Positions 4,785 through 54,533 of a stretch of 64,000 nt of DNA are shown one piece after another (the stretch's first letter is position 1; each line of letters starts with the position of its first letter). The notes below the pieces were generated by a model that saw nothing but the letters and a program-made list of their open reading frames with translations, was not told where the DNA came from and searched no databases. Position numbers and translations under genes: made by a program. This DNA is from Eledone cirrhosa (lineage: Eukaryota), in contig OZ024753.1 in the NCBI GenBank assembly GCA_964016885.1, positions 26,846,001-26,910,000 on the forward strand, given 5' to 3'.

Positions 4785-4856
4785 CTACAAAAATATTCGT
4801 CGGAGATCTGATGGAGACGTGATCATATTACATTGTGGACACAACTTCTTCGCTCC
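4785..4856 (-). CDS. RNF220: RNF220-like terminal coding exon (GAKKLCPQCNMITSPSDLRRIFL*)
   Basis: Poly-T tract and acag acceptor; 72 nt including the TAG; matches the RNF220 C-terminus GAKKLCPQCNxITxPxDLRRIxL. Confidence 0.97.
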   Translation of the reverse strand, partial: GAKKLCPQCNMITSPSDLRRIFL

Positions 4857-5078
4857 CTGTAAAAAAAAAAAAATAATAAAAACAATATTAGATTATGAAT
4901 GAATATCTAACATTTTCTATATAAAATGATATTAATTAAACATAATAAAGATCCATTTGAACCCCAGCTAAGAACAACAAGCCCACTTGCTAGAGGACGA
5001 CTGTGTTACGAATTAACCCTTTTGATACCAAGCTGCCAGAAAACCCACTGGATTTATGATACAAACCTGCACATTTAA

Positions 5079-5297
5079 CCCTTTAGCATTTACATTACTC
5101 TATATTTACCATTATATTTTCATGATAAACACTTTATTTCACATAATTATCTCACATAATATCAAATCTATGAGATTTTGATATTATTTATTTTGAGAAC
5201 AATACCTTAACATCAGTATGAGGGCTGTTTATAGTCGGTTTGAACAGAAGGAGGTGAGAGAATTCTGGCTGGATAAATCGGTTTAAATGCTATAGGG
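5079..5297 (+). mobile_element. piggyBac-like MITE family A (orientation X), nested in a family B remnant
   Basis: TTAA|CCCTTTAGCATTTA...TAAATGCTATAGGG|TTAA; preceded by a family B end at about 5016. Confidence 0.85.
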
Positions 5298-5954
5298 TTA
5301 AACAATCATTTAAATATCAGCTGTAAGGTTATTTAGTTATGTTGTACCACTCAGCAACATAATTAAATTAACAGCATCATTATGAAATAATATTTATTTT
5401 ACAATGCATGAGTTAGATGCAGTGCTGGATTTAGGAGAAATGAGGCCCTGTGCCAGTTAAGTTATGAATCCCCTTACTTGGGCCCTGAAGGAGGTAAAAC
5501 ATTTTTTGACAGGAAGATGACTTATGTGTCTTAGTTAGTAAGGTGTTAACCCATTGGCCATATTGGAGAATTGTTCAGTATCTTAACAGATAATCCAAAT
5601 AAAGGCATGAAACCTCAGTTATGTTAAACAAGAGGAAACGGGAGCATGTTACATTCATGTCTTCCTCCAAGAATACCAATGATGTAAGTGGTTACGCTTA
5701 GAAATTGAAGGCAGGAGGTCTTTTAACTGTGTCAAAGACATCACAACCTAGTATTGGCGCCATGATAAAATGCATTTGTTGGAGCACAGGAAGTGAGATG
5801 CAGGTCCTTGATTTATCTGATTAGAATACTGACTCAATCCATCCAACACTTGCTAGCAGAGAAAACGGATGTTAAATGATGGTGACACAGTTTTGAATTA
5901 AGGGATATTGTGAAGTTAAAATGTGAAATAATGAAATATAAGATAAAGACTTAC

Positions 5955-6029
5955 TAGAGTTCTCAACCAACACTGCTCACAGTGGACATGCCAACACTGG
6001 ACTGATGTTAATGGAACTTTATAAGATTC
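5955..6029 (-). CDS. RNF220: RNF220-like RING core exon (ESYKVPLTSVQCWHVHCEQCWLRTL)
   Basis: Acceptor tttgcag and donor gtaagt; 75 nt; CWHVHCExCWLRTL is the RNF220 RING signature. Confidence 0.97.
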
Positions 6030-6125
6030 CTGCAAACAAATGGTAGAAATTAACAGTAATGAGGGATACATACAATGACTGATGTGGTGTGTATGAATGG
6101 AGAGGAGGTCAAGTAATAAGACACT

Positions 6126-6502
6126 TAGCATTTAAACAGGTCATATCTGATCAGAATCCTCTCACCTCTTTCTGTTCAAACCAGCTGTATCTGGCCACTC
6201 ATACTGATGTTTAGGTATTGTTCTCAAAATAAATAATATCAAAATCTCATAGATTCAATATTATGAGATAATTACATGAGATAAAGCCTTTACCACAAAA
6301 ATACAATAGTTTTTTTTTAAAGCTCACATCGGTCACAAGCCTGTAATATTGTTAATTATACATAATATCGAATCTATGAGATCTTGATATTTATTTTGAG
6401 AACAATACCGTAACATCAGTATGAGTGGCCAGTTATAGCCGGTTTGAAGAGAAGAGGTGAGAGAATTCTGGCTGGATATGGCTGGTTTAAATGGTAATGG
6501 GT
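6126..6502. mobile_element. two partial family A MITEs in inverted orientation
   Basis: 6126-6310 (orientation Y) and 6357-6502 (orientation X) are reverse complements of each other. Confidence 0.8.
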
Positions 6503-6665
6503 TAACAAAGTAACCAAAGATTTCACCAGAAGTAATCTGGTATGAGAGATCAACAGTTAGATCTCCGTTATCTGATTTTGTTTTAGAGAGAGGGAAGCAG
6601 AATGTTATACGAGAGAGAGAGAGAGGGGGAAGGTGAGAGAAGAGATTTACAACTTTATTACATAC

Positions 6666-6780
6666 CATACAGATCAAACATTTATGTTTTTCTTCAGTTT
6701 TTTCTTCTTCTTTCTCCTTCAAGCGACATTTCAGTGCAGAGATAATCCGCTGTGAAGAATTAGTTGCATTACGAGGGTCA
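6666..6780 (-). CDS. RNF220: RNF220-like exon, coiled coil and start of RING (DPRNATNSSQRIISALKCRLKEKEEEKTEEKHKCLICM)
   Basis: Acceptor ttgtag and donor gtatgt; 115 nt; KCLICM supplies the first RING Cys pair. Confidence 0.95.
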
Positions 6781-10424: not shown

Positions 10425-10622
10425 ATCATGGCACCAGAATACCACTTTACAGAATGCACTGAGTGTATTTCATTGTGGTACCAGCACTACTGGGTGTATT
10501 TTATTGTGGTACCAGCACTACTATTTTACAGAATGTACTGGGTGTATTTTATTGTGGTACCAGTACTAACACTTTACAGAATGTACTGGGTGTATTATAT
10601 TGTGGTACCAGCAATACCACTA
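10425..10622. repeat. minisatellite, ~48-bp unit, ~4 copies
   Basis: ctgggtgtattttattgtggtaccagcactactattttacagaatgta repeated next to the exon donor. Confidence 0.85.
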
Positions 10623-10644: not shown

Positions 10645-10731
10645 CCAAGCATGGCACCTCGAAGTGCTTGTCTTTCTCTGTCTTCTTCAGGTTCATCTGA
10701 AGAACAAGGAATGATGTCCACTTCGCTGTAT
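10645..10731 (-). CDS. RNF220: RNF220-like exon (YSEVDIIPCSSDEPEEDRERQALRGAML)
   Basis: Acceptor gcatag and donor gtatgt; 87 nt; resembles RNF220 'YTEADVIPC..EP.E..EREALRGAVL'. Confidence 0.93.
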
Positions 10732-10849
10732 CTATGCAATGGTTAAAGAAAGTTATCTCCAAATAATATTCCATTTTACAACATAATTCTACGATTATTA
10801 TTATACTAGGATTTTTTTTCAACACACTGACGCATATGTGTGTATATAT

Positions 10850-11000
10850 ATCATCATCATCATCTTCGTTTAACGGCCATTTTACACCCTAGCATGGGTT
10901 AGAGGGGAGTTGTCCCACTCGAGGCAAGGTAGGTTGGTTGACCGTGTCTCGCTCATATAGGACTATCTGGCATGTTTTCTACGGCTGGATGCCCTTCCTA
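10850..11000 (-). mobile_element. RTE-family 3' tail fragment
   Basis: (CAT)n followed by sequence similar to the reverse complement of 60-205. Confidence 0.7.
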
Positions 11001-11319
11001 CATTTATATGTATAAGTAAATAAATATAGATGTGCAAACACAGACACACTTACAAAAATACACACTTAGACATACATTCACACAAATGGAACGCCAGCTG
11101 CTATTTTGCTATACTTTTTCAGCCCCCCCCCCCCACTTCCTTTGTTTTACACACAGGCAGCAGACGTAATGAGAGAAGAGTAGTATGAGGTAGTCAAACA
11201 ACTCCTCTCTCTTTACGTGTTATGACAGAATCGCAGAAATTTATATATAGATAGCCTATTTAATTCAGAGTTATCTCGTTTTGTACCACTGTTCATCCAT
11301 CATTGTGATATTCCCCCAC

Positions 11320-11470
11320 CATACACCCGAGACGTGTCTGTGTGTATATCATGACTCATACACTCTTCACTTTCCTGACATTTGTACATTATTCTATGTA
11401 CTATACATGCCCCTTTGATGAGTTGTAGTGCACCTGAGCACTGTACACAATAATTTTCATTATCATTATT
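11320..11470 (+). mobile_element. CR1-like LINE 3' UTR fragment
   Basis: Shares gatgagttgtagtgcacctgagcactgtacacaa plus an (ATT)n tail with 39290-39430 and with 24795-24965 (minus). Confidence 0.75.
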
Positions 11471-11646
11471 TAACGTCTATTTTTCCATGCTTGCATATGT
11501 TAGACGGGATGTCATATTATGAGACAATTCAAGTCAAGTGATCATGTCTTGCTAATACAGATCTGTACTCTTTACCAAACAAGGACTTATACATGAAAAG
11601 ATATAATATATATTAGAAAAGACATTACAGCACACTAGAAGGATAC

Positions 11647-11743
11647 TGGGGTTTGCCATACTGTTCTGAGTCATCACCATCAACATTCAAATCAATGTCA
11701 TCATCCACAGATAAACGACTGCTTGACATCTGGAAGCCTGAAC
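11647..11743 (-). CDS. RNF220: RNF220-like exon (SGFQMSSSRLSVDDDIDLNVDGDDSEQYGKP)
   Basis: Acceptor ttttcag and U12-type donor GTATCCTT; 97 nt; contains the DLxVDGDDxxxYGKPQY motif. Confidence 0.93.
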
Positions 11744-12449: not shown

Positions 12450-12656
12450 TGATAATAAAGTGTGGTTTAAGAGGGAGATTGGCTGCTGTTTCTACCTGAT
12501 CGAGTAACTATATAAAGGCTCTTCCTTCTTGGTGGCTTCCAGTTATTTAGTTTGCTGCCTCAAGTTTTTGAGTTCAAATTCTGTAGGAGCTATCTTTTCC
12601 TTTCTCTAACAGTCTTATTCTCTGCCATACCTTTCACAAATCTAAAATATTTTTAC

Positions 12657-12786
12657 CTGCAAAGCCTCCTTGAAGCATAGTCGTGGCTCGTATTCTTGTC
12701 TGTCCTGCCCATGTATATTCTTCATATTGCTCACCACTATCATCTCCTTCCACATCAACATGGTCATCTTCTGTTATCTGTTCCTT
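12657..12786 (-). CDS. RNF220: RNF220-like exon (KEQITEDDHVDVEGDDSGEQYEEYTWAGQTRIRATTMLQGGFA)
   Basis: Acceptor tttccag and donor gtaaaa; 130 nt; contains the RNF220 middle-domain motif EEYxWxGQxRIRATxxLxGGF. Confidence 0.95.
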
Positions 12787-12984
12787 CTGGAAATTAAGAA
12801 AAAAAACAAAACATCATCCTCATCACCATTTTATGTTCGCTTTTCAATGCTTGCATGGGTTCTTTCCATGCACAGCATATCTCCAATCATCTCGGTCCTT
12901 CACAACTGATTTAAGATGATTCTTTTAAAGTAATTCCAGTGTGACTGGAGAACCAGGATCAGTCACATGTTCACACAAAACATC

Positions 12985-39430: not shown

Positions 39431-41185
39431 CATCATCATCATCATCATCATCAGGTTTAGCGTCCGTGTTCCACGCTTGCATGGGTTTGGACGGGGGTTT
39501 TCCCACTTGAGGCAAGAGTGGTTGTCTTGCTCGCATAGGACTGTCTGGCGGGTTTTCTACAGTTGGATGCCCTTCCTAACACCAACCACATTTACAGTGT
39601 GGGGCTGGGAGGTTTTTACCGTGTTGCCTACACGGCCACATTACAGCGTGGACTGTCTGGCGGGTTTTCTACAGCTGGATGCCCTTCCTAACACCAACCA
39701 CATTAACAGTGTGGGGCTGGGAGGTTTTTACCGTGTTGCCTACACGGCCACATTTACAGCGTGGACTGTGTGTTTTTTTGTCGTGACACCTACACGATCT
39801 CATTTGTTTCGGCCTGGATGTTGTGGGACCAACATAACTGTACATTGAAAGGGGCGGTGTGGATGGGGTGGAGGTGGTGGGACGGGGGGGTGTTTTGATA
39901 GAGATGCCTACTGACTGTAGTAGGTTTTTACTTTGTATTTAGGTAAGGCGGGTCTTCTCTATTACTGAGTACCGCCAAAGGTCTCGGTCCAGTGACATTG
40001 TCTTGGAGAGGTGTAAGCGTGTGAGGTCGGAATTTATCAGCTCGTCCCATGTTTTTCTGGGTCTGCCTACTCCGTGGCTACCGTCTATCTTTATTGCCCT
40101 GCACTTTGTTATACAGCTGTCGTCTTTCATGCGCATCACGTGACCGTACCAACGTAGCCTTCTCTCGAGTAAACAACATCTGATCCCTCTTATTTCTAAT
40201 TTTTTCCTTAGTTCGTTTATGCTTTGCTGTTCACGTATATTACTATTGCACATCCAGCGGAGCATGCAAGCTTCGTTCCTCTCTAGTCTGCGTATATCCT
40301 CTGCACACAATGCCCAGGTCTCACTGCCATGCAGCATTGCTGTTCGTATGCAGGCATCGTATAACCTGCCTTTCATTTTTAGGGAGAACCCTCTAGCGGC
40401 TAATAGTGGTATAAGCTCTCTGAACTTTTTCCATCCAGTTCTGACTCTAGCTACTGTACTTTCAGAGCACCCTCCCCCACTGCTGATTTTGTCACCCAGG
40501 TAACGGAAGCTGTCCACTATTTCTATAGAACCCTCTGCGCAGTTGAAGGAGCTAGTATTTTGTGGGCACTTGCTGCTACTTATTGCACCAGAGCACCGGC
40601 CACATGTAAAATCTATGTTCTTAGTTAGCTTACCTGTGATCCCACTACATCTTTTATGCACCCATACTATGCATTTGGGACATAAAATGGAGTTTCTACC
40701 TACGCCTTTCCTACACACTGAGCATGGCCATTTCCCAGATGGGACTGCCGCCATATTTTCTTTCCTACAAACTAGAACTTTTGTCTTAGCCAGGTTAATT
40801 TTAAGGCCTTTTGATTCTAGGCCGTGCTTCCATGTTTGGAATTTCTTCTCTAGTTCGGTCATTGATTCAGCTATGAGCGTTAGATCATCTGCGTATAGGA
40901 GTTCCCATGGGCAGCCGGTCTTGAACTCCTCTGTTATAGCCTGAAGGGCAATAATAAATAGTAGGGGGCTAAGAACAGAGCCCTGATGGACACCAACTTT
41001 TACGCTAAACTCTTCACTATATTCGTTGTTAATTCTAACCTTACTGACTGTTTCTTTATACATGGCTTGTATAGCTCTCACAAGCCAATCGTCAACACCT
41101 AGTTTTCTAAGAGACCACCAGGTAATGGAACGGGGGACTCTGTCGAAGGCTTTCTCCAAGTCGACGAAAGCTAAGTATAGGGGTT
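39431..41185 (-). mobile_element. 5'-truncated RTE LINE with uninterrupted RT C-terminal ORF (39939-41185), 3' UTR, (TGA)n tail and 8-bp TSD
   Basis: Motifs FVDLEKAFDRVPR, GVHQGSVLSPLLF, LLYADDL and RRLRWYGHVMR; TSD tacacaat at 39423-39430 and 41186-41193. Confidence 0.96.
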
Positions 41186-42258
41186 TACACAATATTTTCA
41201 TTATTATTATTATAGTAAGCTAGTGCTGAATTTCTGACTCAGCAGTATTAACAGGATGAGAGAACAAACCACTCCCTGCATAGGATACCAGGACACACCC
41301 TCCTGACACTGGGGTGGACATATGCTCCTGACACCAAGGTGGACATATCCACCTGACATTGAGGAAGAACATACTCACCCGATACCAAGGTGAATATTTA
41401 CTTACTCTCTTTCATATACTGAGTTCAAAATCTACCATGGTTAATTTTACCTTTCCTCCCTCTGGAGTCAATACACTTATTACCAGTCATGTAGTAAATT
41501 CAATTCAATAGACTAATCCACCCTCACAAACATTTATAGCTTAGTATTCATGTAATACATTATATTATATACTACCATTATTATATCTATTATAGAAATC
41601 AGTAAAGAATTAAACAAAAAAGATTACACACAGGAAAGGATATTATAGCTTTAGGTTTATGTTTTCTACTCACATTTCAAGTTATTCAATGAGACGTAAC
41701 TTGATAAAGTCCATGAAATTGTATCAAAGGACACGCCCTCATCTGAACTGACATACAGTTTATATTTAATTCTCTCTACATGGATATGTATGAGCACGTA
41801 TACACACACAAGCAGAGTTCACATTCCATAAAAAACATTGAATTAGTTATGCCAGTATTTAGTGAACTTCATAACAAATGTGGTTATTTATGAACATTTC
41901 AAATTAGTACAAACTATAAGAAATGGGTGATAAGACATGGCTCAACAGCTTACTACCAAATAGTAGCAAACACTACCTCCAGTAGCCTGTGATATATTCT
42001 TGTAAGCACAAAGCACAATGCAAATAGTCCGAGATATGTCAATTACATTACACTATGTATAATAACCTGTATGTGATGGTACACAATACAGTGTAATAAG
42101 CCTAAGATATTATAGGCCAGCCCTGATGAAGTACACATATGATCAAATGTTCCAGTCATGACCATCCTGTCTTGTTGTATATCAAGGTCTACAGGGTCCA
42201 AAAATAGCGTGATTTGAAGATTATGTAGAGTAGGACATTTCAATGAAGAATATTTAAA

Positions 42259-53833: not shown

Positions 53834-54533
53834 TATTGCAGTAGATGTATAGGGAAATTAGACAGTAGAAGTCGCATTGATAGACACATTTTCAAATGCA
53901 GGCGTGTGCTATAGAAGTAGTGGATAGCTTCCAGTACCTAGGTGATCAGATTAGCATGGGAGGGGGATGTTCCGAGGCCATAGTATCTAGAATAAGGACG
54001 GGTTGGAAGAAGTTTAGGGAGCTGCTTCCTCTGCTGACGAAGAAGGGTTTCTCTCTGCGTACGAAAGGCCGGTTGTATGATGCCTGTGTGAGGAGCGCGA
54101 TGCTGCATGGTAGTGAGACATGGGCAGCAACTGCAGAGGATATGCGACGGCTGGAGAGAAATGAGGCAAGCATGCTCCGTTGGATGTGCAATGTCAATGT
54201 GCGTGAACGACCCAGCATGGATGTGTTGAGAGAGAAACTGTCTAAGAGGGATAGAATGTAGTGTGCGAGAGAGGAGACTGCAGTGGTATGGACATGTGAT
54301 GCGCATGGAGGATGACCGATGGGTGAAGAAGTGCCAGGAAATGCCAGTTGAAAGAAGATGTGGTAGAGGTAGACCACGAAAAACATGGGCGGAGGTGGTG
54401 AGAACAGACCTCAGATCGCTGAAGCGCACGGTGGAGATGACGAAGGACCGTGACAAGTGGAGGGATGCTGTGCTGAATAAGACCTGTCCCACCCTTGCAA
54501 GCAGGGAAAAGCGGACGTTAAATGAAGATGATG
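53834..54533 (+). mobile_element. RTE LINE 3' fragment with frameshift
   Basis: EVVDSFQYLGDQIS..KGRLYDACVRSAMLHGSETW..ERRLQWYGHVMR; frame break near 54240-54262; gatgatg tail. Confidence 0.93.

What the first reader, a model, noticed from the sequence alone, without database searches (positions are those of the whole stretch)
10732..11646. U12-type minor-spliceosome intron inside the conserved YGKPQY motif of RNF220
Seen: the only frame-preserving junction (CCC CA|A TAC = P-Q-Y) uses the donor GTATCCTTC. Its acceptor is TTCTTTAACcattgcatAG, with no pyrimidine tract, unlike the other 11 introns. Established: RTATCCTT plus a TCCTTAAC-like branch site close to the 3' end defines U12 introns, which are rare and often rate-limiting. 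Inference: production of RING-containing protein depends on the minor spliceosome, and retention of this intron would truncate the protein before the RING. I recall vertebrate RNF220 being listed as a minor-intron gene but cannot verify it here; a shared position would make the intron ancestral to bilaterians.
Basis: partly seen in the sequence, partly recalled or inferred. Interest (0 to 1): 0.75.

Follow-up and report, generated by a model that had tools for sequence, protein, structure and literature searches.

The report
Ancient minor intron in octopod RNF220
An octopus-like animal's RNF220 ubiquitin-ligase gene has an intron that is cut out exactly where predicted and is likely removed by the rare "minor" spliceosome; it sits at the same spot as an already catalogued human and mouse minor intron and in coral-like sequences, so it is ordinary and old, though one unidentified animal group likely starts the same intron with an unusual GA.

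Summary
Confirmed and ordinary. Intron 10732-11646 (915 nt, phase 2, minus strand) is intron 7 of the 12 RNF220 introns in this window; one assembled contig joins 11647 to 10731 exactly. Only this intron has a U12 donor, and it has the best branch-site pairing to this genome's own U12; U11, U12, U4atac and U6atac are all present. Human and mouse RNF220 carry a catalogued minor intron (PMC6717393 supplement), and a whale gene model places its signals at the same codon. Coral-like and bivalve-like loci share it, so it is likely older than bilaterians. Rate limitation is not shown; retention would give a premature stop and likely decay. Side finding: in 7 of 15 intron-bearing related loci (6 distinct, one long-branch clade of unknown identity) the donor reads GAATCCTTT with a U12 branch site kept, a predicted GA-AG minor intron; no transcript tests it. 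GA-AG minor introns are known but rare (0.019%), and this scan noted one before in a mussel XPG gene.

The parts
10732..11646 (-). U12-type GT-AG intron, 915 nt, phase 2, inside the Gln codon of YGKPQY (intron 7 of 12 in the window)
   Evidence: spliced contig joins 11647 to 10731; gene model
11638..11646 (-). 5' splice site GTATCCTTC; +3..+8 pair with the 5' end of this genome's U11
10742..10750 (-). branch site TTCTTTAAC, predicted branch A at 10743; 7 Watson-Crick + 1 G-U pairs with this genome's U12
   Evidence: use as branch point is predicted
10732..10741 (-). 10-nt spacer and acceptor TAG, no pyrimidine run
11647..11743 (-). upstream exon (97 nt), part of the RNF220 middle domain PF15926
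10645..10731 (-). downstream exon (87 nt), begins A TAC AGC (Y-S-E-V-D)
11625..11627 (-). in-frame TAA reached if the intron is retained (read-through Q-Y-P-S-S-V-L-stop)
4785..6780 (-). last three exons (6780-6666, 6029-5955, 4856-4785) coding the C-terminal RING and stop
   Evidence: homolog P0001 carries PF13923
4785..48847 (-). RNF220 gene, 13 coding exons in the window; the part matching P0001 residues 1-229 was not found in the window
10810..11520 (.). dispersed-repeat pieces filling much of the intron interior (very high summed contig depth in 10810-11031 and 11254-11475)
   Evidence: table 2; repeat family not identified

Best explanation
This is an exactly spliced GT-AG intron in a cephalopod RNF220 gene that is likely removed by the minor (U12-dependent) spliceosome and is likely the same ancestral intron that is catalogued in human and mouse RNF220. 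Shown: the junction, the signals, the four minor snRNA genes in the genome, and their complementarity to the signals. Inferred mechanism: U11 pairs with donor bases +3..+8, U12 pairs with TTCTTTAAC and bulges the A at 10743, U6atac takes over the donor, and the short spacer sets the AG 12 nt downstream without need of a pyrimidine tract. Correct removal is needed to rebuild the Gln-Tyr codons and reach the RING; an unspliced message would meet a stop 7 codons in and likely be degraded. The intron is most likely an inherited relic kept by purifying selection on its splice signals, not a dedicated switch.
For: Junction in a spliced contig. Among 12 introns only this one pairs with U11 continuously over +3..+8 (duplex -5.3 kcal/mol; the other 11 range -4.0 to +1.9) and it has the best U12 branch helix, 7 WC + 1 GU at 12 nt (next best 6 WC + 2 GU at 8 nt behind a U2-type donor). 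U12 (1 match), U11 (2), U6atac (15) and U4atac (1) found in the own genome over Rfam cut-offs. Human and mouse RNF220 listed with 5'SS ACA|GTATCCTTG and branch site TTGTCCTTGACC. Fin whale model P0158 and a narwhal model read YGKPQ-YPW...VLDHHAR-YTEAD, i.e. the translated donor and branch site flanking the same codon. Of 29 related loci, 24 reach the site; 15 have an intron there, all with a U12-like donor and none with a U2-type donor; acceptors were found in 10 of the 15, each with a branch-like 9-mer 11-22 nt upstream. 37 of 38 protein representatives read Q|Y-P, the read-through of CA|GTATCC. Rough scores from rows of the published table: about 92-93 for the donor and about 83 for the branch site, against a branch threshold of 65 (hand arithmetic; criteria).
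Against: No knock-down or lariat data for this animal. One contig from one run supports the junction, and the run is not on record as RNA. The U6atac duplex energy does not single this intron out (-5.4; two U2-type donors gave -7.1 and -6.5). The branch site has one mismatch and the donor has C at +9. intronIC itself was not run. The 37-of-38 count is biased because the query ended in the read-through residues. The intron is absent in 9 of 24 loci that reach the site, 4 of which clearly carry other introns, so it is dispensable in some lineages.
Confidence: 0.93

Rival explanations
1. The intron is a regulatory bottleneck: slow minor splicing throttles RING-containing RNF220 in a tissue-dependent way through retention or skipping of the flanking exons.
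For: Retention would stop translation before the RING. In human, skipping of both flanking exons is listed for this intron, passing the paper's filter in 1 of 8 tissues at 0.154 (category defined). Long conservation of the U12 class at this site.
Against: Mouse retention value present in 1 of 11 tissues only, 0.027. [quoted passage not shown] Skipping both exons here (97+87 nt) would shift the frame. Conservation of minor introns is the rule and needs no regulatory role (PMC10639083, title and passages).
Confidence: 0.15
2. The intron keeps U12-like marks but is spliced by the major spliceosome, or by both.
For: GT-AG termini are compatible with both machines; 12 of the 17 bases at -20..-4 are pyrimidines (0.71).
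Against: Donor matches the U2 pattern only at GTA; the other 11 donors are GTAAG, GTAAA or GTATG types. None of 15 intron-bearing orthologous loci has drifted to a U2-type donor.
Confidence: 0.05
3. For the side finding: in the GAATCCTTT clade the true donor is not GA but a GT 9 bases downstream, adding three residues (Q-N-P-L-Y) in frame.
For: The +10 base is G in all 6 distinct sequences and +10/+11 is GT in 4 of 6; a 9-nt extension keeps the frame. No transcript was available.
Against: +10/+11 is GC in L029 and GA in L032; the bases before it are TTT, whereas all 12 neighbouring donors inferred in these loci have AG|GT. All ten bases +1..+10 are invariant while only 7 of 20 third codon positions of the exon are, and every column after +10 varies, which fits a base-level splice signal. 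A U12-type branch site 11 nt before AG is kept in all 4 GA loci with a visible acceptor.
Confidence: 0.25

Closest known systems
Human and mouse RNF220 minor intron (Olthof et al. 2019, PMC6717393, supplementary files 1 and 8; human chr1:44644795-44644994, 200 nt; mouse 177 nt)
   Same: Same gene family, GT-AG U12 class, donor core CA|GTATCCTT, phase 2, and by the whale models the same codon.
   Different: Here 915 nt and filled with dispersed repeats; donor +9 is C not G; branch site TTCTTTAAC rather than GTCCTTGAC. Human DNA was not aligned directly.
U12-type introns, GT-AG subtype (74.2% of conserved animal minor introns, PMC10639083 Table S1)
   Same: Donor, branch site, 12-nt spacing (optimum 11-13 nt quoted in PMC6717393 methods), single minor intron among major ones.
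   Different: No difference of kind. Two Octopus species are in that survey's species list, so octopod minor introns were already scanned in bulk; RNF220 is not named in the supplement text searched.
GA-AG U12-type introns (zebrafish actr10, Lin et al. 2010, PMC2831892; 14 cases, 0.019%, PMC10639083 Table S1)
   Same: The side-finding loci have GA plus an intact ATCCTTT core, a U12-type branch site and AG, where orthologues have GT.
   Different: Lin's case is one species; here 6 distinct related sequences share the GA, with one nested relative (L034) reading GTATCTTTT. No transcript support here, and the organisms are unidentified.

Membership tests
U12-type intron (GT-AG) | 5' splice site RTATCCTT at the used donor | tested here: met
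   GTATCCTTC at 11646-11638, donor confirmed by contig
U12-type intron (GT-AG) | TTCCTTRAC-like branch site about 10-20 nt from the 3' end | tested here: met
   TTCTTTAAC, 1 mismatch, branch A 12 nt from the end
U12-type intron (GT-AG) | No clear polypyrimidine tract | tested here: inconclusive
   No run between branch site and AG, but pyrimidine shares overlap with those of U2-type introns of the gene
U12-type intron (GT-AG) | Minor snRNAs present and complementary | tested here: met
   U11, U12, U4atac, U6atac found; U11 and U12 pairing best for this intron, U6atac energy not discriminating
U12-type intron (GT-AG) | PWM score above published thresholds | tested here: inconclusive
   Hand estimate from table rows only: donor about 92-93, branch about 83, threshold 65; intronIC and the major-intron PWM were not run
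U12-type intron (GT-AG) | Splicing depends on U11/U12/U6atac | not testable with these tools
   needs knock-down or lariat sequencing
RNF220 E3 ligase | PF15926 middle domain plus C-terminal RING | tested here: met
   3 PF15926 matches over the cut-off, all in this locus; 94.6% identity over 370 aa to Argonauta RNF220 including the RING
Orthologue of the human/mouse RNF220 minor intron | Same codon and phase | tested here: met
   Published 5'SS ACA|GTATCCTTG and branch site match the translated intron ends in whale models at YGKPQ|Y; indirect, no human DNA aligned
GA-AG U12-type intron (side finding, L029-L037) | U12 core and branch site with GA start at a position orthologous to a U12 intron | tested here: met
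   GAATCCTTTG in 7 loci (6 distinct); TCTTTAAC 11 nt before AG in 4 of 4 with visible acceptor
GA-AG U12-type intron (side finding, L029-L037) | Transcript cut at GA | tested here: inconclusive
   Protein search returned only the locus's own read-through ORF; no reads for these loci

The most novel reading that the evidence does not exclude
A whole animal clade has fixed T-to-A at the near-invariant +2 position of this ancient RNF220 minor intron and still splices it at GA with the minor spliceosome, while one nested member returned to GT and relaxed +6. That would be a natural multi-species test of what the minor spliceosome needs at +2, in a gene whose RING depends on the cut.
Probability: 0.6. 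Interest if true: 0.45.

Novelty: new member of a known kind. Interest (0 to 1): 0.27.

Why it matters
The octopod intron itself adds little: RNF220 is a catalogued minor-intron gene. The comparison dates the intron to before the cnidarian-bilaterian split (likely), shows it was lost in some lineages, and explains several wrong RNF220 gene models at this junction in public protein records (P0015, P0023, P0152, P0158, P0161). The GA-starting form in a related clade, if confirmed by transcripts, would add a multi-species example to a class that makes up 0.019% of conserved animal minor introns and would offer a natural series for testing +2 tolerance.

Tried and rejected
Sequencing runs: no RNA holder listed; the four runs are of unrecorded kind, one study. 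X4 behaves as spliced because one contig skips three introns exactly; a retrocopy origin was considered and is unlikely because the family search found matches only in this locus. Retention: X4 has no contig over 11568-11637 where DNA-like run X1 is continuous, and none implied at 10732-10809; contigs drop rare forms, so this says nothing for or against retention. An apparent extra depth near the donor vanished on the narrow laying. Shifted readings (AT-AC start, TA-GA ends) were rejected: they give a stop or disagree with the contig. Unconstrained duplex energies for the branch region did not separate introns, so a constrained pair count was used. Exon ends 9924 and 8729 were corrected. Search for a transcript-derived protein of the GA clade found 1 hit among 7 candidates, the locus's own ORF. 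A tree of 29 rows (98 columns) grouped L032, L034-L037 at 100/100 on a long branch but did not place them; L029, L031, L033 were left out for lack of a downstream exon; a fast-evolving paralogue is not excluded. Literature: 'RNF220' with 'minor intron' gave 0 papers in main texts; only 1 of 50 listed rows held RNF220, PMC4506483, and its one passage concerns a circular RNA; none of the 20 listed held GAATCCTT. The mutational study of U12 dinucleotides was not held and is known here only through PMC2831892's description. IAOD and MIDB themselves could not be queried.

Full report
Observation. The minus strand reads CCC CA|GTATCCTTC at 11647|11646 and TTCTTTAAC CATTGCATAG|ATAC at 10750-10732|10731. 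The best named relative is Argonauta hians RNF220, P0001. tblastn gave 13 exon blocks, refined to a 13-exon, 12-intron model of 370 aa that is 94.6% identical to P0001 residues 234-597. PF15926 matches only this locus in the 3.0-Gb genome, three times. The finding is intron 7, phase 2, 915 nt.

Junction. Contig 27 of run X4 (2329 nt) covers 12655-12788, 11647-11741 and 10645-10731 with consecutive record positions, so it skips this intron and its neighbours. On a narrower laying the letters before 11647 equal window 10702-10731. The run is not on record as RNA and this is one contig, but the join is exact.

Class. RTATCCTT is not enriched in the window (4 found, 8.7 expected); what counts is position. 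One of 2927 GT sites in the gene span reads GTATCCTT, and 15 of 2114 AG sites have a near-consensus branch site 9-20 nt upstream. The genome holds U12, U11, U6atac and U4atac over Rfam cut-offs. Using those genes, only intron 7 pairs with U11 across +3..+8 (-5.3 kcal/mol against -4.0 to +1.9) and it has the best U12 branch helix, 7 Watson-Crick plus 1 G-U pair with the A 12 nt from the end. The U6atac energy and the pyrimidine share did not separate it from all U2-type introns. From rows of the first of 12 parts of a published score table I estimate by hand about 92-93 for the donor and about 83 for the branch site, above the threshold of 65; this is not an intronIC run.

Known status. In PMC6717393 (supplement rows found by search, part 1 of file 1, and passages of the main text) RNF220 is a minor-intron gene in human and mouse with 5'SS ACA|GTATCCTTG and branch site TTGTCCTTGACC; the human intron is 200 nt and the mouse 177 nt. 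A fin whale and a narwhal model read YGKPQ-YPW...VLDHHAR-YTEAD, which is what those two signals translate to when a predictor reads into both intron ends, tying them to the same codon. The link is indirect, as no human DNA was aligned. PMC10639083 (passages, section 24, supplement rows) lists two Octopus species in its survey and reports molluscs as relatively rich in minor introns. No paper held both 'RNF220' and 'minor intron' in its main text; the other searches are listed under Tried and rejected.

Age. Twenty-four reach the site. Fifteen have an intron there: 7 start GTATCCT, 1 GTATCTT, 7 GAATCCT; none has a U2-type donor. Nine have no intron, of which four clearly carry other introns. 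Acceptors were found in 10 of the 15, each with a branch-like 9-mer 11-22 nt upstream. L014-L016 match the coral Oculina best and L017 and L025 the clam Mya (tree). Of 38 protein representatives, 37 read Q|Y-P, though the query favoured such read-throughs. The intron is therefore likely older than the cnidarian-bilaterian split and lost in some lineages.

Mechanism and consequence. Inferred from established minor-spliceosome biology: U11/U12 recognise donor and branch site together, U6atac replaces U11, and the AG is set by distance from the branch A. Retention reads Q-Y-P-S-S-V-L-stop (TAA 11627-11625) with five introns still downstream, so decay is more likely than a RING-less protein. Evidence for a throttle is weak: the mouse intron has a retention value in 1 of 11 tissues (0.027), and a human event skipping both flanking exons passes the filter in 1 of 8 tissues (0.154). 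Skipping both exons here would shift the frame.

Side finding. Seven loci, six distinct, have CA|GAATCCTTTG. All ten bases are invariant, every column beyond +10 varies, and only 7 of 20 third codon positions upstream are invariant. The four with a visible acceptor keep TCTTTAAC 11 nt before AG and give in-frame Q-Y-S/T-E-A-D. Their neighbouring donors are ordinary AG|GT (12 of 12 inspected). Five of these loci with full pieces, including GT-starting L034, form one clade at 100/100 on a long branch, with L034 beside L032 at 92/94. The rival is a GT nine bases downstream, present in 4 of 6. No transcript could be found. GA-AG minor introns are described: one in zebrafish actr10 (PMC2831892, passages) and 14 cases, 0.019%, in PMC10639083 Table S1. 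An unreviewed note of this scan reports one in a mussel XPG gene; I did not test it.

Verdict. A real, ordinary, ancient minor intron, orthologous to a catalogued one. Interest 0.27, most of it from the GA-starting relatives, which remain predicted.

Noticed in passing
L029:2044, L031:2777, L032:1644, L033:1782, L035:2092, L036:552, L037:1969: The orthologous intron starts GAATCCTTTG; sister locus L034:777 starts GTATCTTTT. Predicted GA-AG minor intron in one long-branch clade of unknown identity.
   Followed up: partly
L018, L019, L020, L022: Genomic loci with other introns read straight through Q-Y/F at this site, i.e. the intron is absent (likely lost). Organisms not named by any search.
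   Followed up: partly
L014:60-460, L015:4169-4509, L016:898-1275: Coral-like loci have the branch site 22 nt from the acceptor, longer than the usual 11-13; two have donor GTATCCTAT.
   Followed up: partly
proteins P0015, P0023, P0152, P0158, P0161: Public RNF220 models from bivalves, a snail and two whales are mis-joined at this junction; P0015 contains I-S-L-T, which fits a translated U12 branch site.
   Followed up: partly
L006:1501-1512, L007: This genome's U11 begins AAAAGGGT, so its U could pair with donor A+3 (human has C there, recalled). U6atac gave 15 matches, many likely pseudogene copies.
   Followed up: no
L021: Several tandem near-copies of the WCGQ exon and two copies of the donor exon in a 1949-nt contig; duplication or assembly artefact.
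   Followed up: no
window 39942-41219 (-) and 53884-54258 (+): Reverse-transcriptase-like reading frames (426 aa and 125 aa) inside or beside RNF220 introns, likely LINE remnants (recognised from motifs by recall, no family scan).
   Followed up: no
window 10480-10620: Short tandem repeat just downstream of the exon that follows the minor intron, with very high contig depth.
   Followed up: no
window 13377-12787 and 8728-6781: Two U2-type introns carry branch-like CTTAAT motifs near their 3' ends, showing that the branch motif alone does not define the class.
   Followed up: yes
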